From the NCBI GenBank assembly GCA_903910705.1, contig CAIWAN010000104.1, positions 2,453 to 66,452 of the forward strand: a stretch of 64,000 bases of DNA, in the 5' to 3' direction. This document shows positions 7,211 to 42,379 of the stretch, in pieces. Every line of letters starts with the position of its first letter. Position 1 is the first letter of the stretch. Below the pieces are notes generated by a model. It searched no databases, was not told where the DNA came from, and saw nothing but the letters and a program-made list of their open reading frames with translations. Both the position numbers and the translations under genes were made by a program. Source of the DNA: an uncultured Candidatus Marinamargulisbacteria bacterium (lineage in GTDB: Bacteria; Margulisbacteria; Riflemargulisbacteria; GWF2-35-9).

Positions 7211-7220
7211 CAGCGAATGA

Positions 7221-8313: not shown

Positions 8314-8819
8314 TACACGAGGATGGGTTTTTTTATTGATAGCGTTTGGTTTTTTGGATCAATCAAGAGAATATATTCTGGAATAACGGGAACAAGCCAT
8401 TCCTCGTCGTTCTCGTTTTTTATGGTTAAGATGTCATTGGCCTTGGTTTGTAACACATCGACGACGTTCCCAAGTACAAGGTTGTTTGCCATAACCACCC
8501 AGCCGATCCATTGTTCGGGGAGGTTGATGGGGGAAGGCGTAATGTTTTCTACTTCGCTAAAAGGGAACCAAATCTCCTGATTAACGTGGAACTGAGCTTT
8601 CTCTGGGGTGTATATGCCGGCGAAAGAAAGAAGCAAAAAAGAGGCTGTTTCTCGAAAATCAATCAGTGTCAGATGTTTGGTTCCAACTGTCACGACGTGA
8701 TTTTGTTTTAATAGATTGATGAAGAAGGGACGATAAGGACGAAAACGAATTTCGCCTTTTATCCCGTGTGTTTTACCCAGTTGGCCTATAGGAACGAGTC
8801 GAGAGGGTGACGTGCTCAC
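8313..8819 (-). CDS. rimM: 16S rRNA processing protein RimM
   Basis: LVPIGQLGKTHGIKGEIRFRPY N-terminal RimM motif and a PRC-barrel C-terminus. Stop/start overlap with trmD. Confidence 0.85.
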   Translation of the reverse strand: MSTSPSRLVPIGQLGKTHGIKGEIRFRPYRPFFINLLKQNHVVTVGTKHLTLIDFRETASFLLLSFAGIYTPEKAQFHVNQEIWFPFSEVENITPSPINLPEQWIGWVVMANNLVLGNVVDVLQTKANDILTIKNENDEEWLVPVIPEYILLIDPKNQTLSIKKPILV

Positions 8820-9247
8820 GTCCCTTCGGTGTCTCCTTTGATATCCAAAACGACCCCGTCTTTGACAATAATTTCTAGCCCACCAAGCTTTTGATAAAGA
8901 TTGTCGCCCGGCTTGATGGTAACAAAGCCATCAATGGTTCCCTGAACAAACTCCGAGTTAAGGGCAAGGGTTTGAGCCTCTTTGATTCTTGATTGTAAGT
9001 CCGCAATGACGCCGACTTGTTGTTGGCGTTCAAGCTTCAGTTGCTGCTCAACAGAGGCAATTTGCTCGCTGGCATTCTCGCTTTTTAAGGATTCTATAAG
9101 AAGTTGACCTTGCTTTTCAATGTCAGAAATTTTTGTTTGAAGATCTTTAATGGCGGTTTCCAGCTCATAGGCTAAATAACTCTTAAAATCATCCGTTACA
9201 ATTGCTTTAATCGTTACCGTTCTTTTTAGTGTTACGTTTTTTGCCAT
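8816..9247 (-). CDS. YlqD-family protein (coiled-coil, unknown function)
   Basis: 143-aa coiled-coil-rich protein sitting between the KH protein and rimM. This is the position ylqD occupies in the B. subtilis rpsP-ylqC-ylqD-rimM-trmD-rplS operon. Confidence 0.5.
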   Translation of the reverse strand: MAKNVTLKRTVTIKAIVTDDFKSYLAYELETAIKDLQTKISDIEKQGQLLIESLKSENASEQIASVEQQLKLERQQQVGVIADLQSRIKEAQTLALNSEFVQGTIDGFVTIKPGDNLYQKLGGLEIIVKDGVVLDIKGDTEGT

Positions 9248-9270
9248 GATGCCCCCGCTTTCAGAAGTTT

Positions 9271-9507
9271 CTACTCTTGTGTAATGATCTCGATGGTTAC
9301 TTTTTTGCCTTGCTTAGCGGCTGCTGCCTTAACGATCGCTCGAATAGCGTTGGCGATACGACCTTCTTTACCAATAACTTTTCCAACATCCTCTTGTGCA
9401 ACACGAATTTCATAAACAACAACGCTCTCACTTGCTGTTTCGGCAACCTCAACATTGTCGGGGTTATCTACGAGTGATTTAGTTAAGAGTTCGACGAGAT
9501 CTTTCAT
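9271..9507 (-). CDS. KH-domain RNA-binding protein (YlqC/UPF0109 family)
   Basis: MKDLVELLTKSLVDNPDNVEV...VGKVIGKEGRIANAIRAIV contains the GxxG KH motif. Start at the ATG at 9505-9507 with an AAGGAG RBS; the longer ORF-track version overlaps rpsP. Confidence 0.8.
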   Translation of the reverse strand: MKDLVELLTKSLVDNPDNVEVAETASESVVVYEIRVAQEDVGKVIGKEGRIANAIRAIVKAAAAKQGKKVTIEIITQE

Positions 9508-9529
9508 ACAGTGGACTCCTTGAACGAAA

Positions 9530-9832
9530 TTAGGCGGTAGGTGTGTCTTCTTTTGAGGGAACGGGTTTAATCGAAGGTTTTGCTTTTTCAGCAATAATCC
9601 CTTGACCAACGAGTAAGCGCTCAACGGTTTTTGATGGAAGCGCGCCTTTGGCGATCCAAGCAACAACTTTTGGGCCATCTATTTGAATAACGGCAGGCTT
9701 TTTGAGAGGGTTATACAAACCACACTGATCAATGACCTTACCATCGCGTGCAACGCGAGAATCTTGAACAACAACACGATAAACGGGTTGTTTTGTTTTG
9801 CCGCGTCGTTGTAAACGAATTTTAACTGCCAT
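9530..9832 (-). CDS. rpsP: 30S ribosomal protein S16
   Basis: MAVKIRLQRRGKTKQPVYRVVVQDSRVARDGK is a canonical S16 N-terminus. Confidence 0.9.
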   Translation of the reverse strand: MAVKIRLQRRGKTKQPVYRVVVQDSRVARDGKVIDQCGLYNPLKKPAVIQIDGPKVVAWIAKGALPSKTVERLLVGQGIIAEKAKPSIKPVPSKEDTPTA

Positions 9833-9897
9833 GAGCTCAACTCCTTGTAACGTATATAAAACAATTTATTATAGCATGTAAAAAAACAGACTAGCAA

Positions 9898-9974
9898 TGG
9901 TGCGCCTGAAGGGATTCGAACCCCCGGCCTCTTGATCCGTAGTCAAGTGCTCTATCCAGCTGAGCTACAGGCGC
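9898..9974 (-). tRNA. tRNA-Arg (anticodon ACG)
   Basis: The reverse complement folds as a cloverleaf: acceptor GCGCCTG/CAGGCGC, D-arm GCTC...GAGC, anticodon stem CTTGA/TCAAG with loop CTACGGA, T-loop TTCGAAT, 3' ACCA. Confidence 0.85.
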
Positions 9975-10088
9975 ATCCTTATGATTGCGGGCTTCATTAT
10001 AGCTTAAAACATAAAACCCGTAAAACCATATACAAAGGCAAATCATTTTGGGTAAAATCGAAACAATACAAAGAAAGAAGGCTTCGCC

Positions 10089-10874
10089 ATGGAATGGAAT
10101 GTATTACTTGCGCCAATTATGCTGTTATTGATTCTATTTATCGGCGTTCCGGAAATAGTCAGGTCACCCCAAGAGTATCTTCATGTTCCAGCGTTAATGA
10201 TCGTTTTGGGTGGTTGTGTTTTCGCCATGTTATTTGGGACCAAATTTAAGAATACATGGAGTCTATTAAAGGCTTATTCGTTTATTGTTATTCCTCAAAA
10301 ACGAATGTCACCACCAGAGGCTATACGGATTATCGTTGAGCTCTCTCGAATTGCATTAACACAAGGGAAAGCGGCCTTGATCCCTGAAATAGAACGGATC
10401 AAAGATCCCTTTCTTCAATATGGGATTTCTTTGGTGGTAGAAAAGTTCCAAGAGCCCTTTATTCGAGCGGCTTTATACAATAGCATCGAAGAAATGCAAG
10501 AACGACATATGACCATCGTGGGTATAAATAGAAACACTGCCGTCGTTGCGCCTATTGCAGGTATGGTGGGAACCATTGTCGGACTCATTCAGGTATTAAG
10601 GAACATGGCCGATCCCTCGCAACTGGGTAAGGCCATGGCCTTAGGACTTATTGCAACCTTTTATGGTGGATTTCTTTCGGGTATGGTGTTTACACCTATC
10701 GCGCAAAAATTAAAGATCATGAGCGATGAAGAGGTTGTATTAAAGCGCATGATGGCCGAGGGGATTTTATTTATTTCAAAGGGCGAAGTTCCGATTAAAG
10801 TTGAAAAATATTTACTTAGTTATCTTCACATGGGTGATGTTAATAAGGCAGCTTTAAGCAATCAATCCGTATGA
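10089..10874 (+). CDS. motA: MotA/PomA-family stator (proton channel) protein
   Basis: 261 aa with 4 predicted TM segments. The C-terminal TM3-TM4 region IAGMVGTIVGLIQVLRNMADPSQLGKAMALGLIATFYGGFLSGMVFTPIAQKL is typical of the MotA/TolQ/ExbB superfamily. Overlaps the downstream motB-like gene by 4 nt. Confidence 0.8.
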   Translation: MEWNVLLAPIMLLLILFIGVPEIVRSPQEYLHVPALMIVLGGCVFAMLFGTKFKNTWSLLKAYSFIVIPQKRMSPPEAIRIIVELSRIALTQGKAALIPEIERIKDPFLQYGISLVVEKFQEPFIRAALYNSIEEMQERHMTIVGINRNTAVVAPIAGMVGTIVGLIQVLRNMADPSQLGKAMALGLIATFYGGFLSGMVFTPIAQKLKIMSDEEVVLKRMMAEGILFISKGEVPIKVEKYLLSYLHMGDVNKAALSNQSV

Positions 10875-11605
10875 GCGGTAGAAAAAAACACGCAGAGGAG
10901 CATGGCGAAAGCCCCATAGGTTTTATTATGTTTGGGGACTTGATGTCCCAGCTTCTATGCTTTTTTATTTTATTGTTTGTTTTTGCCTCACAATATGTTT
11001 CAAAAACACAAGGAACGACCTATGAGGATTTTCTTAAAAAGATAAGCGAGAACTTCAAAAAAGTGGTTGATGAAAAGCAAAAACCTCAAAGCCAGAAGCA
11101 AACGAAAGAGAGCGAATCTGTAAAACAGGAGACGGCAACGGATGCCAAAACAAAGATCGCCCAACAAATCCAGAAACTGGTAAATGATGAAAAACTAACC
11201 GAATATGTAAGTGTAATTGTGGAGGAAAAAAAGGTTCGAATTGTATTAAAACAACCTGTTCTATATGATTCAGGCTCGGCAGAACTAAAACCAGAAGCGG
11301 GATCAATCCTTGCCGATATTGGTGCGATCATTCAGAAGACGCGTAACCCCATTGATATAGAAGGACATACTGATAATATGCCGATCCATACAAGCAAATA
11401 TGATTCGAACTGGGACTTGTCTTTCGATCGGGCCTATTCCGTTATTAAGTTTATGGTTAAAACCGCCGGCATTTCACCGTTGCGCATGAAAACCGTGGGG
11501 TATGGAGAATATCGACCTCTTGCCCCCAATGATAGTGCTGAGAATCGTAGCAAGAATCGACGGATCGAAATCAATGTATTATTTAACGAATCGTTTCGAA
11601 ATTAA
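10871..11605 (+). CDS. motB: MotB-family stator protein with OmpA-like peptidoglycan-binding domain
   Basis: Single N-terminal TM helix carrying the conserved Asp (FIMFGDLMSQLLCFFILLF). C-terminal OmpA_C-like domain (HTDNMPIHTSKY...FDRAYSVIKFMV...RRIEI). 244 aa is MotB size rather than TolR/ExbD size. Confidence 0.8.
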   Translation: MSGRKKHAEEHGESPIGFIMFGDLMSQLLCFFILLFVFASQYVSKTQGTTYEDFLKKISENFKKVVDEKQKPQSQKQTKESESVKQETATDAKTKIAQQIQKLVNDEKLTEYVSVIVEEKKVRIVLKQPVLYDSGSAELKPEAGSILADIGAIIQKTRNPIDIEGHTDNMPIHTSKYDSNWDLSFDRAYSVIKFMVKTAGISPLRMKTVGYGEYRPLAPNDSAENRSKNRRIEINVLFNESFRN

Positions 11606-14944: not shown

Positions 14945-16432
14945 ATGCGACGATCAATTATTAAATGGGGAAGCCTTGTTGTCATATTTATGACCCTTGC
15001 TTTTTCCCAAAATCTGCAGACCTATCAACAACATATTGAAGAGACCGTTCAATCGGCCCTCGATAGAATGTTGGGCGCAGGTCGATCGATAGTCTATATT
15101 TCTCTCATCTCAGAAGGTAATAAGTGGGAGATAAATTATACAAAAATCCCTGATATTCCCGGAATGTCTGATTATCAAGGAGGCGGAAAAGGCCAAAGTA
15201 CAGTTATGCCCGGTATTCCTTCATTAAAGTTTTTGTCTGGCGGGGGAAATGAGGGGGCGCCTCTTAACTATGAGGTGGTCGAACGTAGTCCGGTTGTCGC
15301 CAATAAAGATGTTGTTATTATTATGGATGCTAAGGTCAAGTTAGGTGAAATAAGAGCCGTACGGCAGTTTATTACTGGTTTTTTGAATTTAGATGAACAA
15401 AAGGGCGACAAGCTCTCAATATTAAAACAAAAATTTACCGATCTTTCGGCCGGTGGAAAAGAATCCATTTCCAAACAAAAACTTACTGCAAAAAACAAAC
15501 TGCCTCTTTCAACGATCATCCTTCTTTTAGTAGGACTTGCAGTTCTAGTTGCTATGCTTGTTCTTGTGTTGAAGTCGATGGGACGAAAAAAAGTAATAGA
15601 GGGATCGTCAGCCGAAACAGCGACGCAATTAGCCAATACGGAGGCCACGATTCCGGAAAAAACGGCTGATGAACTCCGAAAAGAAGAAGAAGATGCGCAA
15701 AAGAAAATGGAAGAACAAAAACTGATAGCCATGCGTAATGAAGTGTTAGGAAATGGGGCCAGATATTTTACTTTTGTTGATGATGAGAACACGCACAAGC
15801 TAAAGTTCTTATTGCAGATCAAAATTGCGCTTCAACAAGCGACACCACGAACGGTTGCGGTTGTTATGAGTTGTTTGCCCTCGAACTTAGCAGCATCAAT
15901 ATTGATTGAGTACCCAGTTAAAATTCAGGCAGAGATCATGAACAATATTTTAACCTTACAGCATTACCCAGAAAATGATCTGAGGCAGTTAGAAGAAGAG
16001 ATTAAGAACAGCATAGACTTTTTGTTTGGTGGAAAATATCGCTTAAAACAGGTGATGGATCAATTGTCAGGCGAGGCAAAGAAGCAGCTTCTTTCTTTGG
16101 TCGCTCGCCAAAACCCACCGATAGCTGATGAGCTTAACACGTTGGTTATTCTTTTTGAAGATATTTTAGAGCTAGATGAAAGCACGGTTGCGCGAATATT
16201 TGGAGATATTGATACCGAGATCATCGCGACATCGTTGGTTCATATGGATTCGGGCTATCAACGAAAAGTTCTCGAAACGCTTCCAAAAGGAGTGCAAGCC
16301 ATGGTAGACCAGTGGTTGAGCTTAAAAGGAAATACGGCCTCTCGAGTTGATGTTGACCAAGCCCGACAAGAAGTTATTCAGTACGCGCAAAATTTAGAAA
16401 AAGAAGGGTTTATTTTGATTAATCATGAGTGA
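14945..16432 (+). CDS. membrane-anchored FliG-like protein with FliF/YscJ-type periplasmic ring-building-motif domain
   Basis: Signal/TM1 MRRSIIKWGSLVVIFMTLAF. Periplasmic region resembles a secretin/FliF ring-building motif (SALDRMLGAGRSIVYISL ... VVANKDVVIIMDAKVKLGEIRAVRQFITGFLNLDEQKGDKLSIL). TM2 LPLSTIILLLVGLAVLVAMLVLVL. The cytoplasmic part has FliG-middle-like (AVVMSCLPSNLAASILIEYPVKIQAEIMNNILTL) and FliG-C signatures (ILFEDILELDE matching the MFxFEDL motif; C-terminus DQARQEVIQYAQNLEKEGFILI matching FliG ...EEAQQKI...RRLEE.GEIVI). Confidence 0.55.
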   Translation: MRRSIIKWGSLVVIFMTLAFSQNLQTYQQHIEETVQSALDRMLGAGRSIVYISLISEGNKWEINYTKIPDIPGMSDYQGGGKGQSTVMPGIPSLKFLSGGGNEGAPLNYEVVERSPVVANKDVVIIMDAKVKLGEIRAVRQFITGFLNLDEQKGDKLSILKQKFTDLSAGGKESISKQKLTAKNKLPLSTIILLLVGLAVLVAMLVLVLKSMGRKKVIEGSSAETATQLANTEATIPEKTADELRKEEEDAQKKMEEQKLIAMRNEVLGNGARYFTFVDDENTHKLKFLLQIKIALQQATPRTVAVVMSCLPSNLAASILIEYPVKIQAEIMNNILTLQHYPENDLRQLEEEIKNSIDFLFGGKYRLKQVMDQLSGEAKKQLLSLVARQNPPIADELNTLVILFEDILELDESTVARIFGDIDTEIIATSLVHMDSGYQRKVLETLPKGVQAMVDQWLSLKGNTASRVDVDQARQEVIQYAQNLEKEGFILINHE

Positions 16433-17255
16433 AAAATCCTTCAATCTTTTTCAGAAGCGAGAAGCTAAATCCCAATCGGTTGACGAAGCATCGAAATCAG
16501 CGGACATCCGAAGTGTTTTTCAAGAAAGTGGCAAGGAGGAGACACTAGCCCTTCAATACTTTAGCTATATAACGAAAGACAATACTTATCATACTGCCCA
16601 TGTGTTAAATAAAATCATCAAAGCGAAGCCCGAAAACTTAAAATATGCCTGCCTCGTTATTTCGTACGTTGACCCTGAGTTAGCGCAACGACTATTAGGG
16701 GAGTTTCCGGATGAGATCCAAGTTCATGTTGTTTCTGAATTGTTATCCTTGATCCAATATAGCAAGGCAGAGATCGAGAATTTTGATAAAATTCTGCGTC
16801 GATTGTTGACCGAACAATTTGGCGGGAAATATGTTGTGGCTAAGCTACTAGAAGAGCTTGATATAGAAAAAAAGATGCTTCTAATGCAAGAGTTCTCTAA
16901 ACGATATCCAGACGCAGCAACTTTATTTAGACGGATCATGATCTTATTTGAGGATCTACTCTCACTAAATGAGGTAAATTATCAGCGAATTTTTTCTGAA
17001 GTATCAAACGAAATATTATCCATGGCTTTTTGCAATCATTCCGTTGAACAACAAACTAGACTCTATAATATTCTTCCAAAAGGGCTAAAAAATATTGTTC
17101 AACAAGGTATAGAGCTTGGAAGGAAAAAATACTCAAGAACTGATATCAATAAGGCTCAACAATATATTATTGAGTACGCAAAACAACTCGAAAAGGATGG
17201 GTTTATTGATCCTATCTTAAAGGATGAAAACGCAAAGCCCCCGACATCAAGCTAG
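16425..17255 (+). CDS. soluble FliG-like paralog (FliG middle plus C-terminal domains)
   Basis: 276 aa. Contains ILFEDLLSLNE (the MFxFEDL-type motif) and the C-terminal DINKAQQYIIEYAKQLEKDGFI. Overlaps the upstream gene by 8 nt (ATGAGTGA), which suggests translational coupling. Confidence 0.55.
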   Translation: MSEKSFNLFQKREAKSQSVDEASKSADIRSVFQESGKEETLALQYFSYITKDNTYHTAHVLNKIIKAKPENLKYACLVISYVDPELAQRLLGEFPDEIQVHVVSELLSLIQYSKAEIENFDKILRRLLTEQFGGKYVVAKLLEELDIEKKMLLMQEFSKRYPDAATLFRRIMILFEDLLSLNEVNYQRIFSEVSNEILSMAFCNHSVEQQTRLYNILPKGLKNIVQQGIELGRKKYSRTDINKAQQYIIEYAKQLEKDGFIDPILKDENAKPPTSS

Positions 17256-17328: not shown

Positions 17329-20300
17329 GTGAGAAAATCTTCATGTCATTTCAGGGTAAGGTTCTTCGCACTTGTCGTGGGAATATTGCCGTTTGCCTTC
17401 ACCACGATTACAGACCTTTCCTTTTTTTCAGGAGGCACACAAACACAATATGTTCACGTGATGCAAAATCAGTCTATTGGGTTTAAAGATAGTGCAAACC
17501 AAGTAACCATTAATCTTTCGGATGAGATTCAATTTAAATTGAATTATTCCACAAAGCAATACACAGTATTAAAAGGAAGCGATTGGTTTGATGGAAACCC
17601 AACGATCACTTGGAACAATTTGGCCGAAATTAGTATTAACTACCGCCTAAAATGGACGAACCCTTTTGCTCAAAATATGCCAATTCTCGTGACGATAAAT
17701 GATAACGAAGCCTCGATTACGACATCAATCTTGACGTATAATCAAGAATTTGTTCTTACGGCTTTAACACTTAATGCTGATCAGCAATTCTTTGTCCAAG
17801 ATGCAAACGGGCCTTGGATAAAAGGGGGCATTGGGTCAGGAGAAGGTGTTGTTTGTTTGGGGAACCTCGCCTATAAATATGATACAACTTTGCATCCCTT
17901 GAAAGATGTATCCATGTGTCTATATTTTGACGGAGTGCCTGATGGCTCGCAAGTAAATGTGGGAACAGATGGAAAATTCCAATTTAATAATTTTTTGGTT
18001 CCTATATCTGCAACCGGAGTGAGCAAGAACTGCGAAATTAGGGTTGATTTGGCTGGCGCTATCGGAAGCGCAATCCTTTCATCAACAGTCATACCCAATA
18101 CCTTTAATGTTCAAATTGATAATATGCCACCAACATGGACTGAAACGAGCCTTATCCTTGTATCTGATAATAATTATGAGAGTCAAGGTCGACTGAAGCC
18201 CGACGATGGGTATTATGGCCAACTGACAGTTTCGGTTAAAGTAGACAAATTTAATCTGGTTACAGATAATGCTGGCGCAGGAGTCTCCACGATTCTTTCC
18301 TTTCGTGCCGAACAAGTCACGGTCGAAGGGCTAGACGTAACCACGAGCATTCAAACACGTGAAGGTGTTCGTGACATCCAAGTACTCATTTTTGATAAAG
18401 TCCATAATTCTGCAAGCTTGAGTGTACGCGTAAGTGTTGATGTCACTCCGCCTAGTTTGTTTTCTGTTTATTTGGGGCAGGACAATGATACTACAATCAA
18501 TCAAACCCTTCCTGCCGTTGGGTGGTTTAATGATGAAACCGTGAGTTTTTCGTGGACGACTCCTGCTGATTTTTCCCTTCGAGAATGGCCCTATCAAGTA
18601 AAAAACGACCCGTCTCCAAACTGGTCAGCTGAACAGGAAGGCATTTTATCAGATAATATGTTCCAGTTGACGCGAAATACAAATCAACTTTACATCGAAG
18701 CCGGAGGAAATCTTGCCAAAACCATTAAGGTTAGAGCCGTTGATCGTGCGGGCAATATTCGAGAGGCGAGTACAACCGTTTTTGTTGATAACACACCACC
18801 GACACTCAATGTTTTTAGGCTAAAACCTGATTTAACGCTTGAGGCTGATAGCCTAGAACTTCCCGAGGCAACGCCAAATATCTGGTACAACAATGGGGAT
18901 GAAGTCAATTGGACGTGGTCAGCAGAGGATAATGGTGAACTCCCGCAGAAACCCTATGCGTATTATTATAATAAGGGAAATCAGAATGTATTGACCTCAG
19001 ACTTTACCAATTTATCGGACATCATTATTCCTTCTGATGAAGCCCCAACAGGGAACATGTTAACCCTTTTAATTCGAGACAAAGCGGGGAATGTTGCCAT
19101 TTCAACGAAAAATGTTTTCGTGTCCGAAACGGCTCCCATCATGAGCTATAAAGACATTCTTTTTTTGTCCGACATGACGGATAATGGAGGGGATGGGGTT
19201 CTTGCTGAATCCCTCTGGTATGATCAAACGACATTAGATTTTGTCACAACGGTAAATCTTCAAAGCTTCTCCGCTCCCCTTTCCAAAATTTATTTCAAGC
19301 GGAGCATTGATAGCACGAAGAATATCTTGGATATATCAACCGTGCAGACGATAACTATTTCGAGCTTTGAGATCATATCCAATAGTCGAACAGATATAAC
19401 GTTTGAATTTGTGGATCGAGCGGGTCGTGGAAGCCAAGTTTTTAAAAATGTTGAGTCAACAACAATCGTGCCTATTAATCTAAATGCTGTCCTTGTCAGC
19501 GACAAAGACAGCAGTTTACAGCAAGATGGGATAGATCCCGAGCCAGGTTATTATGATAGTCCAACGATTAGTATCACTTGGCAAAAACCAAATTATTGGG
19601 GACGGCTTCGCGACCAACCGTACTCAACTAATATTAATGGAGAAGGCTGGGGAACCGAGTTCGGGACAGAGGGCCTGCAGCTATCTCTTACGCCAAACCA
19701 TGCTTTTTCGTTAATCATTCGTGCAGCAGATCGCGCTGGAAATGTGGTCACGAATCAACTTTTTGTGACGGTTGATGTCGAGGCCCCAACTGGTTCTTTT
19801 GAGTTTATTATTTCAGAGGATGTCCCCCATAATGGGGGGGTAACCCCTGACATCGGTTGGTATTCTAATCATTGGATCAAAGGTCAATTTCTGTCTGAAA
19901 ATGTGACGGATTTTTTTGGTCTTCGTGAAGCCCGATATTTTGTAAAAAATTTAGAGGTACCTTATGGGCAGGGATCATCCTCTTCTTTAAATGTTGAGAC
20001 TTTTTCTAATGAACGAGGCAGTGTTATCAATTATGTTTCGGGTGCAATTGCCGATCATGCGGGCAATATAATTTCACTCCAAAAACCGGTGTATGTTGAC
20101 ATGACCTCCCCTGGAGCTTTTTCTACAGAGATTTTGCCAGATGCGACTGACAATGGTTCCGATGGATTTTTCCCAGAGGTTGGCTGGTATGATGAAGAGG
20201 CGGTCAATGTTAAGTGGATGCATTCCAATGATGATGCGCAGTTGGCGGAAAAACCTTATAGACTTTCCAGCACGATGCGAGATTGGACCCCGTTCCAACT

Positions 20301-23300
20301 GGCACCTTTTTATGACGGACTTCCTGTTTCTGAGGGTGGCGATATGACGCGAGATGTATATGTTCAGGTCAGAGATAAAGCAGGTAATCTAACAACAGAA
20401 AGTATGACGATAAGAATTGATATTACCCCTCCTGAGATTCTGACGTTTAATATTCTTAATCAAGCACAAACCGTGGTTACTTGGGCTGAAAATAATGGAG
20501 CGGTCTGGCTCGATCAAAATTATTCTCTTCCTCTTCCATCTTGGTATAACACGTCAAACGTTACAATAGCATGGGTAACACCCTCGGAGAATGGGCAGTT
20601 AACGGATCGCCCCTATCGATATCGAGCGAAGTACGGACAAACATCTTTCTCAGAGTGGGTAAGTGGCGATGTGTTTTCTGCTGATATTCACGTATCAGCT
20701 AATGAAAATTCGCCTAATATAATTTATTTTCAGGCCCTAGATCGGGCAGGGAACTTGGCGGTTATAACTCGTTCGATCAACGTCGATTTCTCGCCCCCAT
20801 CAATGAGTGTTCAATATGTGGCGGTAAGCAACGATGTAATCAGAGAGTTTATCCGACCTTATGTCACAACCGGAGACGTTCTTTGGATAACCTTAAATAG
20901 CCAAGAAGTTCTTATTGTCACACCAACGCTTGTTGTTAATAATGGGGTTTATCCCTACGACTTTGTTGAATTTGTTGCGCTAGAACGAGCGTCCGATTAT
21001 GTCTGGACAGCGAGCATCGACCTAAAAAAGATAAATGGAGCGGATGGGTACTTCCTCTATCGTGACGGATCCTATCAATTGGATGTCAAAGCATATGATA
21101 ATGCAGGGAACAAGACCAATACCCTTAATGGGGATGTGTCTTTTGTTGTGAAAAATGACTCTGCACCACCAGGAGAAAATTTTAGTCTCTATGAGTATAT
21201 TGATCTTACACGTAGTGATACCTATACAAGGCATGAAATGGTCGAATTTTCTGTGACGATCGACTCTAAAATCGCCGAGCTCTATCTAACTGAACGGGCA
21301 GACCTCTCGACTTTTGAGAGAGTTAAGTCGTCACAGTCCTCTTTTCAAAGAATATCTAGGGATGCAGCTAAACTCTATACGTTTCAGCCTGACCTGAATA
21401 CGAATGAAGTTATGGATGGCATGAAAACAGTATTTTTATGGACAGTCCTTGAAAACGGGATCGGCTCCGATGTATCGGTAAGTGCAAGGATCCGATATGA
21501 TCATACGGCACCTTTCGTTAGTATTGAGCCTGATTATATGGCTCTTCAAGGTAGAACAGATGGGGTTTCTCTGTCGATAGGAACGTATCATTGCAGGATG
21601 ACACTAAGTTCAAATATTGTCGGGTATAGAGAGGAGGCGATTGAAACGCCCTCGTGGAAACTGCTTCTTCCTGCCGTAGGTGCAACGTTTATAACGGTTG
21701 ACCTAGTGCCCAGCTTAGAAGATCAATCCGATCGAAGCAAGTGGGTCGCTACGTATAATTCAGCTCTCTCAACGGCCAGTGGAAATGCCATATTCCTCAT
21801 AGCGGTAACCGATAATGCCTTAAACCCTACAAACCAAATAAAAGAAGGGGAACGCTTTAACATTGACTTACAAGCAGCAGGGAATCCTTCTTTTTCGGTA
21901 AGATCATTAGATGGTCGACAAGGGTATACTCGGTTCTTAACGGTGAATATTGAGATTCAGAATGATAGTTCTTCGACGACATACAATTATTATAAAATAA
22001 CGGAGGGCTTGCGTTATCGTCCAAGCTTTGAAGCCGTGAATACCCCCTGGGAAAGTTCGCCAACCATTGTAAGTTTTAGAATTGATGAATCGTTCCCACC
22101 AGATGAAGTTCTTGAAGGAGCGAAAACGATTTATGTCTGGAGTAGAATTAACTTTTACCTCAACCCTGAGATCATCGAAAGGCGTATCACTTATGACAAA
22201 ACCCCCCCCAGCCTCAATATTCTCGTTGCGCCTTATCTAAATAAGGCAGACAGTTCAGTCCCAGAATCCTTAAGAGTCACAATGTCGGTAAGCGAAGAAC
22301 TAGAAACAACAAATAGTCAGCTTCTCTTATTGAAAGATGAGAGCAGAAGTACACTCAGTACCTCTAATTGGGTTTTTGACAAGAAAAGTGGAGGTGTTTA
22401 TACCTATGTATCAACCCTAGATATACTCGGAGCGAACAAGTTTACTAATATATCAATTCAAACGATGCTTAGTGATTGGGCAGGCAATACAACGAACCAC
22501 ACACAGGCTGTTCGCCAATTGCTTTCCATTAAAGAACTTAAAGACGAGGTTCCTTCTGCAGCTTCCTTTGTAGAGCAAGGAAAACCCGACTTTCTGGTGA
22601 TGTCTTGTGTGCTTTCAGCGAATGATTTGGCTATTCACTTGCGGGGAATACGGGTTCAGTCAGCTGGATCATATCAGCCCATCGATTTTAATAATTTCAA
22701 GGTGTTTTTAGATGGGAATAATGATGGGCAATTCAATTATGATTCTGGATATGGGTTTGATTCTCTCAAAGGAATGAGTTCAGGTGGAATTGATCAGACG
22801 GGCATTGTTTCAATTTCATTTCTTAGTGAAGAAATGATCCCAAGCAATTCTTCAAAACGTTTTTTTATTGTTGCTGATGTCAGCGTTGGGGCGGTTCAAC
22901 GGGATACCTTTACGATGAAGTTTTTATCATATAACGCGTTTGAAGTTGCAGATAACGAAATGGTTGACTATGCAAATGCACCCAACGAATTTCGAACAAA
23001 ACAGATTATGATCGTTAAGACGATCAGTGGGGTATATTTGGTTCCGCAAATCGGCTCACAAAGTTCCGCCAACAGGGTCACACAAAATGTAAATCGAGGT
23101 GGATCCAACCAGCTTCTTAATAAGTTTACTCTGTATACAGACAAAGGCGTTGCTCTCTGGAGCGGAATAAAACTCCGATATAGCGGAACCATAGGAACCG
23201 AACACCTTAATCTTTCCTTGTATAAGGATACAAATCTAAATGGCCTTTTTGAACTAGAAGCGGATGGTCAGGTTAGCTATCCCAGTAATCGGTTTGAGGT

Positions 23301-25059
23301 TGGACAGTCAGTAATGACACTCAATCTCAAAGACAATCAGCTTATCAATGCGATCGACTCGGACAAAATGACTTATTTCCTTGTGGGGGATCTCTCGTTG
23401 GATAGCCCCCTATCCACTACGTTTGATCTAGCGATAGTAAGTAGTAATGAAGTGCTTGTTGAGACACCCAATCAAGTAGTTTCGTCTCTACTACCCTATA
23501 GAACGGCTGAATTTAAAGTACAAGATTATGTTTCAAAAATCGTAATGACTGTTGCAAACAACCCCCAACAAGATGTTTTTCAGGGAGATAGTATTATTCT
23601 TCAAAAAATGTTGTTTGATCTCGACTTGGCTAGCGCAGCACAATTTACCTATATTGATTATTATTTTGATGGGACGGCCCTGATTGCGGACTTTTTGGCT
23701 GATGGTAATGATTCAGGGATTGCTCTGTATGGGTTATCTTCAAATATGACCCTGACTCAAGATTTCGAAAGAGATGTATTGCTCGGGGCAACAAAGATTG
23801 AGGCAACCAATAGTTGGTCAGATGGAAATCATCGCCTTAGGATTAATTTCTTGACGGAACAACCCCTTGTAACTCACAACTTATTTGCCCTAGTGGTTAC
23901 GCTAAATGGCGGGTCAACACCCGGCCGGCAATTTAGTTTTACCTCCCATCTCGAAGTGGTTAGTCAAAATCCCTATATAGGTGTTGTAGGTGCCGTCGCA
24001 AATAAGGATCAAACCTTTTCTACGAATACCGTAGAGATTATTAGTGAGTTTAATCCAAGTCAACCCAAGGTTAGCATGAACTATTATAATCGTTTCCCCA
24101 CAAAACTACCTCTTTCGTTTGATACATACACAAAATATGGATTCATAAATCGCACATCCCTTCATGTTAATGATGTTGTTGGCTATAGCTATTTAATAGG
24201 AACCATTCCGGGGCTAGGCGATGTAGCTTCTGAGCCAAAAGTTGATCTGATCGAGCCGTCCCCTATTAAAGTGGATGTTCAGGCAGACATACAAAATATT
24301 AGCCTATTGCCGGATCAACTTTACTATTTAACGTTACGGTCGATCGCAACTCGATCGGATAATTCAGGAACGTTATATTCTAAGCCTGTGGTCATTCCTT
24401 TTATGACAGACTTTTCTCCACCGCACCTCCCCAATTACCCGATAGATGTTCAAATTGATGGGACAAAACATTTGTTAAGCTGGGAAGATTTTTCTGACCC
24501 TGTCTCGGGAATAAAACGTTTTTATATAGAAGAAAAGAGTAACTATATTCCCTCGTGGAACCTAATAACCGTTTTGCCGCCAGTGAGCGATCCTATGCAA
24601 CCTAAAATTAGCGAGAGATATTATTCTACTCAGTCCAGAAAACCAAACATGTCCTATACCTATCGTGTTAAAGCCGAGAATCAAGCGGGGTTGATGAGCG
24701 ACTATATTTACTCAACGCCCCTTACAACCGCGGATACAGATAAAGTTCTCAGTAGTGTTAGTAACTACCCCAATCCTTTTAATTCAAGAAAGGAAAAAAC
24801 CACATTATTTTATTATTTGAATCAAGATACAGGTATCGAGGTGCGAATCTACGATTCAATAGGTCATTTTGTGCGAAAATTTAACTATACAGCTGGAATA
24901 ATTGGCAAGACGGTAAAGGGTGATTGTACAATGGAGTGGGATGGCAAGAATGAGCAGGGTGAATATGTTGCAAAGGGTGGATATTTTGTTGTTATTGAGG
25001 CGCCAGACACAAAGGGTGAGGATAAAAAAATTGTTCGTATGGTTGGGGTGATCCACTAA
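17329..25059 (+). CDS. giant (2576 aa) repetitive cell-surface protein with T9SS/FlgD-Ig-type C-terminal sorting domain
   Basis: N-terminal signal-like MRKSSCHFRVRFFALVVGILPFAF. At least 11 repeats of roughly 115 aa bounded by DRAGN...V(D/N)x(T/S)(P/A)P junctions (DNMPPT, DVTPPS, DNTPPT, DVEAPTG, DMTSPG, DITPPE, DFSPPS, DHTAPF, DKTPPS, FSPPHLP), each with a GWY...W...PY core. The last roughly 90 aa (NYPNPFNSRKEKTTLFYY...IYDSIGHFV...EWDGKNEQGEYVAKGGYFVVIEA) match the Por secretion tail / FlgD Ig-like family. Confidence 0.7.
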   Translation: MRKSSCHFRVRFFALVVGILPFAFTTITDLSFFSGGTQTQYVHVMQNQSIGFKDSANQVTINLSDEIQFKLNYSTKQYTVLKGSDWFDGNPTITWNNLAEISINYRLKWTNPFAQNMPILVTINDNEASITTSILTYNQEFVLTALTLNADQQFFVQDANGPWIKGGIGSGEGVVCLGNLAYKYDTTLHPLKDVSMCLYFDGVPDGSQVNVGTDGKFQFNNFLVPISATGVSKNCEIRVDLAGAIGSAILSSTVIPNTFNVQIDNMPPTWTETSLILVSDNNYESQGRLKPDDGYYGQLTVSVKVDKFNLVTDNAGAGVSTILSFRAEQVTVEGLDVTTSIQTREGVRDIQVLIFDKVHNSASLSVRVSVDVTPPSLFSVYLGQDNDTTINQTLPAVGWFNDETVSFSWTTPADFSLREWPYQVKNDPSPNWSAEQEGILSDNMFQLTRNTNQLYIEAGGNLAKTIKVRAVDRAGNIREASTTVFVDNTPPTLNVFRLKPDLTLEADSLELPEATPNIWYNNGDEVNWTWSAEDNGELPQKPYAYYYNKGNQNVLTSDFTNLSDIIIPSDEAPTGNMLTLLIRDKAGNVAISTKNVFVSETAPIMSYKDILFLSDMTDNGGDGVLAESLWYDQTTLDFVTTVNLQSFSAPLSKIYFKRSIDSTKNILDISTVQTITISSFEIISNSRTDITFEFVDRAGRGSQVFKNVESTTIVPINLNAVLVSDKDSSLQQDGIDPEPGYYDSPTISITWQKPNYWGRLRDQPYSTNINGEGWGTEFGTEGLQLSLTPNHAFSLIIRAADRAGNVVTNQLFVTVDVEAPTGSFEFIISEDVPHNGGVTPDIGWYSNHWIKGQFLSENVTDFFGLREARYFVKNLEVPYGQGSSSSLNVETFSNERGSVINYVSGAIADHAGNIISLQKPVYVDMTSPGAFSTEILPDATDNGSDGFFPEVGWYDEEAVNVKWMHSNDDAQLAEKPYRLSSTMRDWTPFQLAPFYDGLPVSEGGDMTRDVYVQVRDKAGNLTTESMTIRIDITPPEILTFNILNQAQTVVTWAENNGAVWLDQNYSLPLPSWYNTSNVTIAWVTPSENGQLTDRPYRYRAKYGQTSFSEWVSGDVFSADIHVSANENSPNIIYFQALDRAGNLAVITRSINVDFSPPSMSVQYVAVSNDVIREFIRPYVTTGDVLWITLNSQEVLIVTPTLVVNNGVYPYDFVEFVALERASDYVWTASIDLKKINGADGYFLYRDGSYQLDVKAYDNAGNKTNTLNGDVSFVVKNDSAPPGENFSLYEYIDLTRSDTYTRHEMVEFSVTIDSKIAELYLTERADLSTFERVKSSQSSFQRISRDAAKLYTFQPDLNTNEVMDGMKTVFLWTVLENGIGSDVSVSARIRYDHTAPFVSIEPDYMALQGRTDGVSLSIGTYHCRMTLSSNIVGYREEAIETPSWKLLLPAVGATFITVDLVPSLEDQSDRSKWVATYNSALSTASGNAIFLIAVTDNALNPTNQIKEGERFNIDLQAAGNPSFSVRSLDGRQGYTRFLTVNIEIQNDSSSTTYNYYKITEGLRYRPSFEAVNTPWESSPTIVSFRIDESFPPDEVLEGAKTIYVWSRINFYLNPEIIERRITYDKTPPSLNILVAPYLNKADSSVPESLRVTMSVSEELETTNSQLLLLKDESRSTLSTSNWVFDKKSGGVYTYVSTLDILGANKFTNISIQTMLSDWAGNTTNHTQAVRQLLSIKELKDEVPSAASFVEQGKPDFLVMSCVLSANDLAIHLRGIRVQSAGSYQPIDFNNFKVFLDGNNDGQFNYDSGYGFDSLKGMSSGGIDQTGIVSISFLSEEMIPSNSSKRFFIVADVSVGAVQRDTFTMKFLSYNAFEVADNEMVDYANAPNEFRTKQIMIVKTISGVYLVPQIGSQSSANRVTQNVNRGGSNQLLNKFTLYTDKGVALWSGIKLRYSGTIGTEHLNLSLYKDTNLNGLFELEADGQVSYPSNRFEVGQSVMTLNLKDNQLINAIDSDKMTYFLVGDLSLDSPLSTTFDLAIVSSNEVLVETPNQVVSSLLPYRTAEFKVQDYVSKIVMTVANNPQQDVFQGDSIILQKMLFDLDLASAAQFTYIDYYFDGTALIADFLADGNDSGIALYGLSSNMTLTQDFERDVLLGATKIEATNSWSDGNHRLRINFLTEQPLVTHNLFALVVTLNGGSTPGRQFSFTSHLEVVSQNPYIGVVGAVANKDQTFSTNTVEIISEFNPSQPKVSMNYYNRFPTKLPLSFDTYTKYGFINRTSLHVNDVVGYSYLIGTIPGLGDVASEPKVDLIEPSPIKVDVQADIQNISLLPDQLYYLTLRSIATRSDNSGTLYSKPVVIPFMTDFSPPHLPNYPIDVQIDGTKHLLSWEDFSDPVSGIKRFYIEEKSNYIPSWNLITVLPPVSDPMQPKISERYYSTQSRKPNMSYTYRVKAENQAGLMSDYIYSTPLTTADTDKVLSSVSNYPNPFNSRKEKTTLFYYLNQDTGIEVRIYDSIGHFVRKFNYTAGIIGKTVKGDCTMEWDGKNEQGEYVAKGGYFVVIEAPDTKGEDKKIVRMVGVIH

Positions 25060-42361: not shown

Positions 42362-42379
42362 GACGATCCTCCGTATTTT

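What the first reader, a model, noticed from the sequence alone, without database searches (positions are those of the whole stretch)
16425..17255. Second, soluble FliG paralog translationally coupled to the membrane-anchored one
The 276-aa protein repeats the FliG-M/FliG-C architecture (ILFEDLLSLNE; DINKAQQYIIEYAKQLEKDGFI). It overlaps the upstream gene by 8 nt (ATGAGTGA) and has no FliF-binding N-domain. The charged torque-helix residues corresponding to E. coli FliG R281/D288/D289 are only partly conserved: the Arg is present, but the DD pair is replaced by DQ in protein 1 and QQ in protein 2. Two stacked FliG-like subunits with divergent stator-facing surfaces are reminiscent of FliG1/FliG2 specialisation in spirochetes, but here they are linked to a surface adhesin gene.
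Basis: partly seen in the sequence, partly recalled or inferred. Interest (0 to 1): 0.6.

Follow-up and report, generated by a model that had tools for sequence, protein, structure and literature searches.

The report
Second FliG of a non-flagellar motor
This gene encodes a soluble copy of the flagellar rotor protein FliG that, in uncultivated Margulisbacteria, always sits behind a membrane-anchored FliF-FliG fusion and next to stator genes (MotAB) and a giant surface protein, which points to an undescribed motor-like machine built from flagellar parts but without the rest of a flagellum nearby.

Summary
The ORF at 16425-17255 is real and under strong purifying selection (dN/dS about 0.05). 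It overlaps the upstream gene by 8 nt. It has the FliG middle and C-terminal domains by Pfam, by PDB profile search and by predicted fold, and no FliG N-domain.

The residue-level claim needs correcting. There is no Arg at the R281 position: it is an invariant Gly preceded by Lys. All five classical torque-helix charges are lost in both paralogues, and the FliM-binding EHPQ motif is lost too.

The main new result concerns the upstream "membrane-anchored FliG". It is predicted to be a natural fusion of a FliF RBM3/collar-like periplasmic ring domain, a TM helix and FliG-MC.

The set anchored FliG, soluble FliG, MotA/MotB and a roughly 2,600-aa secreted protein is syntenic across Marinamargulisbacteria, Riflemargulisbacteria and Termititenax. 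The secreted protein carries a T9SS-CTD/FlgD-Ig-like C-terminus.

An exhaustive HMM search finds hundreds of anchored-FliG proteins elsewhere. They often sit beside MotAB (once with FlbD) and sometimes beside giant adhesins.

Best reading: a non-flagellar rotor-stator module coupled to a giant surface protein, with the 276-aa protein as its second rotor subunit. I found no description of it in the literature I could search. I could not check whether these genomes also carry true flagellar genes.

The parts
16425..17255 (+). FliG2: soluble 276-aa FliG-MC paralogue (the finding). It has a disordered, variable N-terminus (residues 1-43), a conserved YFSYI..N.YH helix, ARM-M, a GG linker, ARM-C and a C-terminal six-helix domain.
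   Evidence: ORF and translation. Pfam FliG_M and FliG_C above cutoff. PDB profile hit to FliG-MC at 2.4e-19. AF2 model and Foldseek. 28 orthologues. dN/dS 0.05.
16632..16817 (+). FliG2 middle (ARM-M) domain, residues 70-131. The FliM-binding EHPQ motif is replaced by E70-N71-L72-K73.
   Evidence: Pfam FliG_M. Alignments to T. maritima FliG.
16821..16826 (+). Invariant Gly133-Gly134, equivalent to the FliG Gly-Gly hinge between helix-MC and ARM-C.
   Evidence: Invariant columns. Alignment to T. maritima 'KVGGID'.
16893..17207 (+). FliG2 C-terminal domain, residues 157-261. It includes the MFxF-like hinge M172-I-L-F175-E-D.
   Evidence: Pfam FliG_C at 4e-15. Foldseek to 1qc7 and 8ucs_H with TM 0.82-0.86 and rmsd 2.2-2.5 A.
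17073..17132 (+). Torque-helix equivalent, residues 217-236 (LPKGLKNIVQQGIELGRKKY). The R281, D288, D289 and R297 positions are G220, Q227, G228 and Y236. G220, Q227 and G228 are invariant across the family and Y236 is nearly so.
   Evidence: HMMER and MAFFT registers agree. Invariant columns.
16425..16432 (+). 8-nt overlap ATGAGTGA between the FliG1 stop and the FliG2 start (translational coupling).
   Evidence: Sequence. Conserved junctions in relatives.
14945..16432 (+). FliG1: 495-aa membrane-anchored protein, predicted to be a natural FliF(RBM3)-TM-FliG-MC fusion.
   Evidence: Pfam FliG_M and FliG_C. AF2 model. Foldseek hits to both FliG and FliF. 25 orthologues.
15014..15439 (+). FliG1 periplasmic domain, residues 24-165. 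Topology is alpha-beta-beta, then a roughly 40-aa loop with invariant PGIPSL.F, then beta-beta-alpha-beta. This is a ring-building-motif fold most like FliF RBM3 plus collar.
   Evidence: 17 FliF MS/S-ring entries at E 8e-6 to 4e-4, probability 1.0, TM about 0.5; SpoIIIAG at 5e-2. Sequence searches alone do not detect it.
14966..15010 (+). FliG1 N-terminal hydrophobic segment, residues about 8-22: either TM1 or a signal peptide.
   Evidence: Sequence. Alignment. AF2 helix. Whether it is cleaved was not determined.
15500..15583 (+). FliG1 transmembrane helix, residues about 186-213. It is followed by a variable low-complexity, charged linker.
   Evidence: Sequence and alignment. AF2 helix 188-213.
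15782..16414 (+). FliG1 cytoplasmic FliG-MC, residues 280-490. Its torque-helix equivalent is LPKGVQAMVDQWLSLKG.
   Evidence: Pfam. Foldseek 1lkv at 1.9e-9; 8ucs_H TM 0.91, rmsd 1.5 A. Motif table.
10089..10874 (+). MotA: flagellar-type stator A subunit, closest to Vibrio PomA. The channel prolines are kept. At the PomA R88/K89 and E96 positions it has L/T and I.
   Evidence: Pfam and NCBIfam. PDB phmmer to 8brd at 3.9e-38. Alignment. In most relatives this gene lies between FliG2 and the giant gene.
10871..11605 (+). MotB: plug, a TM helix with the conserved Asp (FGDLMS), and an OmpA-type peptidoglycan-binding domain. It overlaps motA by 4 nt.
   Evidence: Pfam MotB_plug and OmpA. Sequence.
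17329..25059 (+). Giant 2,576-aa secreted protein. It has an N-terminal signal sequence and many Ig/FN3-like repeats with DRAGN / VD..PP motifs. It is orthologous across all loci examined.
   Evidence: Translation. Pfam Big_13 and FlgD_ig. tblastn over the full length in relatives. Conservation profile. In L016 its start overlaps the FliG2 stop by 4 nt.
24787..25056 (+). C-terminal beta-sandwich domain of the giant protein. It is the most conserved part (about 60% identity) and ends ..VRMVGVIH. It resembles both a T9SS C-terminal domain and the FlgD Ig domain.
   Evidence: Conservation profile. FlgD_ig at 2.4e-7. PorU and PorZ C-termini at 6e-8 to 4e-6; TIGR04183 at 20.6 bits against a cutoff of 23. 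FlgD in the PDB at 0.023.

Best explanation
The 276-aa protein is the soluble second subunit of a flagellar-motor-like rotor-stator module that is not part of a flagellum.

Proposed module:
- Its upstream partner, FliG1, is a membrane protein with a periplasmic FliF-RBM3-like ring domain covalently joined through one TM helix to a FliG-MC. This replaces the FliF-C/FliG-N handshake and explains why neither protein needs a FliG N-domain.
- FliG2 is made in fixed proportion by translational coupling. It joins the FliG1 ring in the cytoplasm, probably through the ARM-M/ARM-C stacking that polymerises FliG. This would give a two-component ring with no FliM/FliN switch.
- PomAB-like MotA5B2 stators, anchored to peptidoglycan, engage this ring through a rewired, largely uncharged interface.
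- The work is delivered through the periplasmic ring to the co-encoded giant secreted protein with its conserved C-terminal beta-sandwich. It might move, deploy, secrete or tension that protein on the cell surface. Functionally this would be analogous to GldLM/SprB gliding and type IX secretion.

Shown:
- Domain content.
- Paralogy of the two proteins.
- Translational coupling.
- Purifying selection.
- Conserved synteny.
- Loss of the torque-helix charges and the EHPQ motif.
- The predicted RBM3-like fold.
- A wide family of anchored FliGs next to MotAB.

Inferred:
- Ring formation.
- Co-assembly of FliG1 and FliG2.
- Rotation.
- The physical link to the giant protein.
For: 1. FliG-MC identity of both proteins.
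2. They are each other's paralogues: 28% identity, gapless, hhalign 2e-34. A rough NJ tree nests FliG2 inside the Margulisbacteria anchored-FliG clade, apart from canonical FliG.
3. The periplasmic domain of FliG1 matches 17 FliF RBM3/S-ring structures (E down to 8e-6, probability 1.0) and SpoIIIAG. A distant family member carries a precomputed YscJ_FliF_C Pfam hit (P0218).
4. Synteny. The order FliG1 | FliG2 | MotA | MotB | giant protein | MetRS holds in Riflemargulisbacteria, Termititenax and some Marinamargulisbacteria. In the window's clade motAB has moved about 3.3 kb upstream, but FliG1 | FliG2 | giant is kept. In L016 the FliG2 stop overlaps the giant gene's start.
5. A more divergent Margulisbacteria locus repeats the pattern: anchored FliG, then a soluble 225-aa FliG, then a Kelch protein of more than 3,722 aa.
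6. The exhaustive HMM search gives 3,390 hits, 72 at E<=1e-30. Most of the best 150 are 450-700 aa and match over both halves of the profile. Their contexts include MotA/MotB, FlbD plus a 1,656-aa cadherin/PKD adhesin, and a 16,931-aa ORF plus PilZ.
7. The stator looks functional. It has the MotB plug, the conserved Asp and an OmpA domain, and the MotA channel prolines are kept.
8. Rotor and stator lose charges together. The FliG R281/D288/D289 positions become G/Q/G or G/Q/W. The MotA position equivalent to PomA R88 becomes L in the window and Q in relatives.
9. Strong constraint: dN/dS 0.03-0.05, and an invariant VQQGI in the torque-helix position.
Against: - Nothing here is experimental.
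- Ring formation and FliG1-FliG2 contact were not modelled, because no multimer prediction was available.
- The RBM3 assignment rests on a medium-confidence AF2 model (pLDDT 65; the loop at 66-106 is below 50). Sequence profiles do not recover it.
- The FliG1 linker between TM2 and FliG-MC is long, variable and low in complexity. That is an odd feature for a torque-bearing connection.
- In the window motAB is not in the operon, and its MotA is only 37-39% identical to the operon-encoded MotAs.
- Some anchored-FliG loci have no adjacent MotAB or adhesin.
- Bins labelled Margulisbacteria are listed in the literature among taxa with flagellins and FlgV. Flagellar genes elsewhere in these genomes therefore cannot be excluded.
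- The giant protein could be a neighbour kept for reasons unrelated to the motor.
Confidence: 0.55

Rival explanations
1. FliG2 is a regulator rather than a structural rotor subunit. It would be a soluble FliG decoy, clutch or brake that binds MotA or FliG1 and so switches the machine on or off, or sets its direction, taking over the role of the missing FliM/FliN switch.
For: - It is soluble and has a disordered, variable N-terminus.
- Its stator-facing helix differs from that of FliG1, yet it is invariant within the family.
- Most anchored-FliG systems outside Margulisbacteria do without a second FliG. It is therefore an add-on rather than a core part.
Against: - Translational coupling by overlapping stop and start codons is kept across the whole phylum. 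That argues for stoichiometric co-assembly rather than regulated expression.
- All the FliG polymerisation elements are retained: ARM-M, GG hinge, ARM-C and the MxxF hinge.
- A second, divergent Margulisbacteria system has the same pair.
Confidence: 0.15
2. The two proteins are specialised FliGs of a genuine, if divergent, flagellum encoded elsewhere in the genome.
For: - FliG domains are present, and the MotAB is flagellar-type with PomA as its best hit.
- JGI annotates the orthologues as FliG.
- The literature lists 'Candidatus Margulisbacteria' among taxa with flagellin and FlgV homologues.
- FlbD lies next to motAB in one distant locus.
Against: - No other flagellar gene occurs in the 64-kb window or in any 20-kb locus examined.
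- FliG1 lacks FliF RBM1/RBM2, which house the export gate.
- Both proteins lack FliG-N and the EHPQ motif that binds FliM.
- They score 59-65 bits against the TIGR00207 cutoff of 226.7.
- The invariant partner gene is a giant secreted Ig-repeat protein.
Confidence: 0.12
3. The module is an ion-driven energiser for secretion or surface anchoring of the giant protein, without continuous rotation of a large ring. FliG1/FliG2 would act as an adaptor for MotAB, as SiiAB does for the SiiE type I system or TonB/TolA for ExbBD/TolQR.
For: - Conserved linkage to a Sec-signal protein whose most conserved part is a C-terminal sorting-type beta-sandwich resembling T9SS CTDs.
- MotAB-like SiiAB with the giant adhesin SiiE is a published precedent (title and abstract listed).
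- The flexible FliG1 linker suits a tether better than an axle.
Against: - The RBM3/collar-like domain is a ring-building fold.
- FliG-MC is only known as a rotor element.
- Some family members have MotAB but no giant protein nearby.

This rival overlaps the best explanation. It differs from it only in the mechanical mode.
Confidence: 0.15
4. These are MgtE-type N-domains, or a decaying remnant of a lost flagellum with no current function.
For: - FliG and the MgtE N-domain are homologous.
- A faint precomputed MgtE_N hit appears on some orthologues.
Against: - FliG structures score 2e-7, against E=4.6 for MgtE.
- There are no CBS or MgtE membrane domains.
- dN/dS is 0.03-0.05 and many columns are invariant over sequences 50% diverged.
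- Operon structure is conserved.
Confidence: 0.03

Closest known systems
Flagellar rotor protein FliG (middle and C-terminal domains; e.g. T. maritima 1LKV, Salmonella C-ring 8UMD)
   Same: It shares the ARM-M, helix-MC, Gly-Gly hinge, ARM-C, MFxF-type hinge and C-terminal six-helix bundle. Flagellar-type MotA/MotB are encoded nearby.
   Different: - It has no FliG-N domain and no EHPQ motif for FliM.
- All five charged torque-helix residues are replaced.
- It scores far below the equivalog cutoff.
- No FliM, FliN or export apparatus is encoded nearby.
- Its partner gene is a giant surface protein.
FliF MS-ring protein and engineered or mutant FliF-FliG fusions (e.g. PDB 8Z4D; FliF-FliG fusion rings, PMC6079021)
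   Same: The upstream partner has the FliF topology: TM, periplasmic RBM3/collar-like domain, TM, cytoplasmic tail. It is covalently joined to FliG, as in the laboratory fusions that still assemble rings.
   Different: - The fusion is natural.
- RBM1 and RBM2 are absent, and the collar insertion is short (about 40 aa, with a PGIPSL motif).
- FliG-N is deleted rather than retained.
- Homology to FliF is visible only in the predicted structure.
Spirochaete FliG1/FliG2 paralogues
   Same: Two FliG paralogues occur in one organism, with different stator-facing helices.
   Different: The spirochaete proteins are full-length soluble FliGs of periplasmic flagella (from background knowledge, not tested here). 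Here one paralogue is membrane-anchored, both lack the N-domain, and the genes are adjacent, overlapping and tied to an adhesin-like gene.
Bacteroidota gliding / type IX secretion motor (GldLM with SprB adhesin)
   Same: An ion-driven 5:2-type motor is genetically tied to a giant repetitive surface protein that carries a conserved C-terminal beta-sandwich domain. This is the closest functional analogy.
   Different: - The motor here is MotAB plus FliG, not GldLM.
- No T9SS genes were seen in the window.
- The CTD is below the TIGR04183 cutoff.
- No evidence of gliding exists.
Salmonella SPI-4 SiiAB with the T1SS giant adhesin SiiE
   Same: A MotAB-like proton channel is co-encoded with a giant Ig-repeat adhesin.
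   Different: SiiAB has no FliG partner and works with a type I secretion system. Here there is a Sec signal, and no T1SS components were seen.
MgtE N-terminal domain
   Same: It shares a distantly homologous all-helical ARM-like fold.
   Different: There are no CBS or transporter domains, and the structural match is much weaker than to FliG (E=4.6 against 2e-7).

Membership tests
FliG, flagellar motor switch protein (TIGR00207 equivalog) | Whole-protein score above the curated equivalog cutoff | tested here: not met
   59.2 bits for FliG2 and 65.1 bits for FliG1, against a cutoff of 226.7.
FliG, flagellar motor switch protein | FliG middle and C-terminal domain folds | tested here: met
   Pfam FliG_M and FliG_C are above gathering scores. 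The PDB profile hit is 2.4e-19. Foldseek's top 13 matches are FliG, and the C-domain superposes at rmsd 2.2-2.5 A.
FliG, flagellar motor switch protein | N-terminal domain that binds the FliF C-terminus | tested here: not met
   There is no FliG_N hit even at E<=10. Residues 1-43 are variable and predicted disordered.
FliG, flagellar motor switch protein | EHPQ(R) motif of ARM-M that binds FliM | tested here: not met
   The motif is ENLK in FliG2 and ATPR in FliG1.
FliG, flagellar motor switch protein | Gly-Gly hinge and MFxF hinge | tested here: met
   G133-G134 are invariant. M172-I-L-F175-E-D aligns with MFVFED. The second position of MFxF is not Phe.
FliG, flagellar motor switch protein | Charged torque-helix ridge (E. 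coli K264, R281, D288, D289, R297) facing MotA | tested here: not met
   The residues are C203, G220, Q227, G228 and Y236 in FliG2, and V432, G449, Q456 and W457 in FliG1. The E. coli numbering is mapped from memory via the T. maritima alignment.
FliG, flagellar motor switch protein | Encoded in a genome or locus with FliF, FliM, FliN, an export apparatus, rod and hook | tested here: inconclusive
   None occurs in the 64-kb window or in about 20 related loci. Whole genomes could not be scanned. The literature lists some Margulisbacteria bins with flagellin or FlgV.
FliF / MS-ring (for the upstream partner FliG1) | RBM3 plus beta-collar ring-building domain between two TM segments | tested here: met
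   This is met in the predicted structure only. There are 17 FliF entries at E 8e-6 to 4e-4 with probability 1.0, and the topology is TM, periplasmic domain, TM.
FliF / MS-ring (for the upstream partner FliG1) | Sequence membership (Pfam YscJ_FliF / YscJ_FliF_C) and RBM1/RBM2 domains | tested here: not met
   No Pfam or PDB sequence hit was found. The periplasmic part is only about 140 aa, which is one domain.
Flagellar-type stator MotA/MotB (for 10089-11605) | MotA_ExbB channel domain; MotB plug, conserved TM Asp and OmpA-type PG-binding domain | tested here: met
   Pfam. Best PDB hit is PomA at 3.9e-38. FGDLMS Asp. Scores are below the equivalog cutoffs (147 against 341).
Flagellar-type stator MotA/MotB | Conserved charged residues of the MotA cytoplasmic loop (PomA R88/E96, E. 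coli R90/E98) | tested here: not met
   The window MotA has L and I at these positions. The operon-linked MotAs of relatives have Q and E.
Type IX secretion substrate (for the giant protein) | C-terminal sorting domain (TIGR04183 type A CTD) | tested here: inconclusive
   TIGR04183 scores 20.6 bits against a cutoff of 23. PorU and PorZ C-termini score 6e-8 to 4e-6, and FlgD_ig scores equally well.
MgtE magnesium transporter N-domain | MgtE_N followed by CBS pair and MgtE membrane domain | tested here: not met
   No CBS or MgtE domain is present. The Foldseek match to MgtE is E=4.6.

The most novel reading that the evidence does not exclude
FliG1, FliG2, MotAB and the giant CTD-bearing protein constitute a previously unrecognised bacterial envelope machine. 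It would be a T3SS-less, switch-less rotor made from a FliF-RBM3/FliG fusion and driven by flagellar-type stators. It would move, reel or export a giant adhesin, giving a new kind of surface motility or attachment organelle. It would be present in Margulisbacteria (sister lineage of Cyanobacteria, including the spirochaete-attached Termititenax) and, in variant forms, in many other uncultivated bacteria. It could be either a derivative of the flagellar motor or a relative of its pre-flagellar ancestor.
Probability: 0.35. Interest if true: 0.92.

Novelty: new variant of a known kind. Interest (0 to 1): 0.78.

Why it matters
FliG is known only as the torque-receiving rotor of the flagellum. A conserved, strongly selected FliG pair would show that the flagellar rotor-stator core exists as an autonomous module used for something else. 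The pair described here is fused to a FliF-like ring domain. It is linked to MotAB and a giant surface protein. No export apparatus, rod, hook or switch is encoded nearby.

That bears on two open questions:
- How the flagellar motor originated, and whether a rotor and stator could function before the type III export apparatus and filament were added.
- How non-flagellated, uncultivated bacteria move or attach, for example Termititenax on spirochaetes.

The family also offers a natural experiment on rotor-stator coupling without the canonical charge pairs.

Tried and rejected
- MgtE or transporter-fragment reading: rejected.
- Pseudogene or relic reading: rejected by dN/dS of 0.03-0.05 and invariant motifs.
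- Sequence-only detection of FliF in the FliG1 N-terminal domain failed. The PDB profile search and a Pfam scan of 14 members at E<=10 gave only one weak YscJ_FliF_C hit (0.13). The FliF link therefore rests on the predicted fold.
- Literature searches found no description of this system. The terms were Margulisbacteria with FliG, MotA or flagella; FliG-like with non-flagellar; FliF-FliG fusion; Termititenax; and Rifle-/Marinamargulisbacteria.
- The Termititenax genome paper (Utami 2019) is not held.
- A fold search against AFDB, to obtain the taxonomy of the wider family, was not available.
- Cluster look-ups gave no organism names for the non-Margulisbacteria loci L019-L022. Their phyla remain undetermined.
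- The third word-indexed homology search, with a diverse alignment, returned mostly one TPR-bearing subfamily.
- The promoter and terminator scan gave nothing decisive. It listed no terminator-like site on the + strand between 14,900 and 17,500.
- I could not test whether the same genomes carry canonical flagellar genes, nor model FliG1-FliG2-MotA complexes.

Full report
**Observation**

The window has an ATG-started ORF of 276 aa at 16425..17255 (+). Its first 8 nt (ATGAGTGA) overlap the end of a 495-aa ORF at 14945..16432.

Pfam finds FliG_M (residues 70-131) and FliG_C (residues 157-261), both above their gathering scores. The same two domains occur in the C-terminal half of the upstream protein. 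No FliG_N is detectable, even at E<=10.

A profile of 22 orthologues hits T. maritima FliG-MC at 2.4e-19 over profile positions 63-254.

An AlphaFold2 model (mean pLDDT 69.8; residues 1-42 disordered) has FliG structures as its 13 best PDB matches. Its C-domain superposes on 1QC7 and 8UCS_H at 2.2-2.5 A. MgtE appears only at E=4.6.

The gene is not a chance ORF. It has 28 homologues at 54-93% identity and many invariant columns. Its dN/dS is 0.05 against two close relatives.

**Correction of the residue-level claim**

HMMER and MAFFT give the same register against T. maritima 'MSKRAAALLKDELEYMGPVR'. The mapping to E. coli numbering is from memory, via the T. maritima alignment.

| E. coli position | FliG2 (this protein) | FliG1 (upstream) |
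|---|---|---|
| K264 | C203 | V432 |
| R281 | G220 (invariant) | G449 |
| D288 | Q227 | Q456 |
| D289 | G228 | W457 |
| R297 | Y236 | not mapped |

- The conserved basic residue is the preceding Lys (K219/K448). It aligns with a non-critical Lys/Gln of FliG.
- There is no Arg at the R281 position.
- The EHPQ motif that binds FliM is ENLK in FliG2 and ATPR in FliG1.
- The Gly-Gly hinge is kept, as is an MxxF-ED hinge.

**What the upstream protein is**

The 495-aa protein has these parts:
- an N-terminal hydrophobic segment;
- a conserved periplasmic domain of about 140 aa;
- a TM helix (about residues 186-213);
- a variable low-complexity, charged linker;
- FliG-MC (residues 280-490).

In the AF2 model the periplasmic domain folds as alpha-beta-beta, then a loop, then beta-beta-alpha-beta. 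The roughly 40-residue loop carries an invariant PGIPSL.F motif.

After the FliG hits, Foldseek returns 17 FliF MS-ring / RBM3-collar structures (E 8e-6 to 4e-4, probability 1.0, about 160 aligned columns). SpoIIIAG follows at 5e-2.

Sequence methods alone do not see this relationship. One distant family member does carry a precomputed YscJ_FliF_C hit.

I therefore read FliG1 as a natural FliF(RBM3)-TM-FliG-MC fusion. It has the FliF topology, lacks RBM1/RBM2, and replaces the FliF-C/FliG-N contact with a peptide bond. Laboratory FliF-FliG fusions assemble rings (PDB 8Z4D; PMC6079021), so such an arrangement is mechanically plausible.

**Relationship of the two paralogues**

FliG2 aligns without gaps to FliG1 residues 269-491 at 28% identity (BLASTP 2e-36, hhalign 2e-34).

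A rough NJ tree, without support values, places the FliG2 clade inside the Margulisbacteria anchored-FliG clade. It places all anchored FliGs apart from canonical FliGs.

**Organism and synteny**

All close homologues come from Candidatus Margulisbacteria: Marinamargulisbacteria, Riflemargulisbacteria/GWF2_35_9 and Termititenax. The window is closest to a Marinamargulisbacteria MAG (85% identity, L007).

- In Riflemargulisbacteria, Termititenax and several Marinamargulisbacteria the order is ClpB(-) | HU | SSB | FliG1 | FliG2 | MotA | MotB | roughly 2,600-aa protein | MetRS.
- In the window's clade motAB has moved about 3.3 kb upstream (10089-11605, next to an inverted rpsP-trmD operon). FliG1 | FliG2 | giant | MetRS is unchanged.
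- In L016 the FliG2 stop overlaps the giant gene's start by 4 nt.
- The FliG1/FliG2 junction is an overlap or near-abutment everywhere.
- A more divergent Margulisbacteria locus repeats the design: response regulator | anchored FliG (549 aa) | soluble FliG (225 aa) | 197 aa | Kelch protein of more than 3,722 aa.

**The stator**

MotA is closest to Vibrio PomA (3.9e-38) and keeps the channel prolines. MotB has the plug, the TM Asp (FGDLMS) and an OmpA domain.

At the PomA R88 and E96 positions the window MotA has L and I. The operon-linked MotAs of relatives have Q and E. Charges are therefore lost on both sides of the classical rotor-stator pairs. That is compatible with co-adaptation of this MotA with these FliGs, but it does not prove it.

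**The giant protein**

- All orthologues have a signal sequence and Ig/FN3-like repeats.
- The C-terminal roughly 80 residues are the most conserved part, at about 60% identity against about 30% overall.
- That domain hits FlgD_ig, the C-termini of the T9SS proteins PorU and PorZ, and TIGR04183 just below its cutoff (20.6 against 23).

It looks like a sorted or anchored surface protein.

**A wider family**

An exhaustive HMM search of 1.84 billion cluster representatives with the FliG1 profile gave 3,390 hits at E<=1e-3, 818 at E<=1e-10 and 72 at E<=1e-30.

Most of the best 150 are 450-700 aa and match both the periplasmic and FliG halves. The sequences show the same design, with a conserved LPG.P loop motif.

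| Locus | Gene order |
|---|---|
| L019 | 16,931-aa ORF, UPF0164/TPR OMP, anchored FliG, MotA, MotB, 824-aa ORF, UPF0164, 461-aa ORF, PilZ |
| L020 | anchored FliG-TPR, FlbD, 56-aa ORF, MotA, MotB, 1,656-aa cadherin/PKD adhesin |
| L021 | TPR-like protein, anchored FliG, MotA, MotB |
| L025 | anchored FliG (855 aa), MotA, MotB |
| L022 | KaiC-like ATPases, anchored FliG, no adjacent MotAB |

I could not determine the phyla of the non-Margulisbacteria loci.

The soluble second FliG was seen only in Margulisbacteria.

**Interpretation**

The best-supported reading is a non-flagellar rotor-stator module.
- A ring of FliF-RBM3/FliG fusion subunits is complemented by the stoichiometrically made soluble FliG2.
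- The ring is engaged by peptidoglycan-anchored MotAB through an uncharged interface.
- There is no FliM/FliN switch.
- The module is coupled through the periplasmic ring to the giant CTD-bearing surface protein.

The closest functional analogies are GldLM/SprB gliding and type IX secretion, and more loosely SiiAB/SiiE.

Ring formation, FliG1-FliG2 co-assembly, rotation and the physical link to the giant protein are all inferences.

The rivals are that FliG2 is a regulator or clutch, that the pair serves a true flagellum encoded elsewhere, or that the module is a non-rotary energiser. They are weighed in the structured fields. The MgtE and relic readings are rejected.

**Limits**

- No other flagellar gene lies in the 64 kb or in the related loci, but whole genomes could not be scanned.
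- The literature lists some bins labelled Margulisbacteria among taxa with flagellin or FlgV.
- The RBM3 assignment depends on a medium-confidence model.
- No publication describing the module was found in the searchable library. Public annotation calls these proteins 'FliG C-terminal domain-containing protein' or 'FliG'.

**Verdict**

The finding opens onto what appears to be an undescribed, widely distributed use of the flagellar rotor-stator core. Interest is high, at 0.78. Its novelty is at least a new variant of a known kind, with a substantial chance (about 0.35) that it is a new kind of envelope machine.

Noticed in passing
window 14945-16432 (+): The 'membrane-anchored FliG' upstream of the finding has a periplasmic domain predicted to fold like FliF RBM3 plus collar. 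That makes it a natural FliF-FliG fusion lacking RBM1/2 and FliG-N. An invariant PGIPSL.F loop motif is conserved (as LPG.P) across hundreds of related proteins.
   Followed up: yes
window 6518-11605 compared with L001/L004 1-7300: Relative to Riflemargulisbacteria and Termititenax loci, the rpsP-khpA-ylqD-rimM-trmD-rplS-lepB operon is inverted. motAB has also been moved out of the FliG operon, to lie between that operon and clpB. The close relative L015 shares this rearrangement.
   Followed up: partly
window 28441-33435 (-) and 27359-28444 (+): A 1,664-aa protein has weak hits to phage distal-tail and tail-tube families (DUF2460, TIGR02217). It converges on a lone PilC-like T2SSF gene. The T2SSF gene after TatD is also present in L016. 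Function and any link to the FliG module are unknown.
   Followed up: no
window 41792-43612 (-): A 410-aa outer-membrane protein has weak FadL/Toluene_X and UPF0164 hits and sits beside a small TPR protein. UPF0164/TPR outer-membrane proteins flank the anchored-FliG/MotAB cluster in the distant locus L019. PorV of the T9SS is FadL-like (from memory). It is a possible outer-membrane partner for the CTD-bearing giant protein.
   Followed up: no
L019 1-8090 and L020 11890-12150, 14039-19009: Distant anchored-FliG/MotAB loci sit next to a 16,931-aa ORF and a PilZ protein (L019). In L020 they sit next to FlbD and a 1,656-aa cadherin/PKD/Big_9 adhesin. The organisms were not identified.
   Followed up: partly
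L024 10001-21650: A second, divergent Margulisbacteria system (GWD2_39_127 type) has an anchored FliG (549 aa), a soluble FliG (225 aa), a 197-aa secreted protein and a Kelch/beta-propeller giant of more than 3,722 aa. A response regulator precedes it and no motAB lies in the 20 kb.
   Followed up: partly
window 59718-63226 (-): Two tandem PAS-domain histidine kinases (627 and 542 aa) overlap by 4 nt. No response regulator was seen in the remaining window sequence.
   Followed up: no
window 9271-9678 (-): The mechanical ORF for KhpA is 135 aa, but relatives encode 77 aa and the KH domain starts at residue 59. The true start is probably internal.
   Followed up: no
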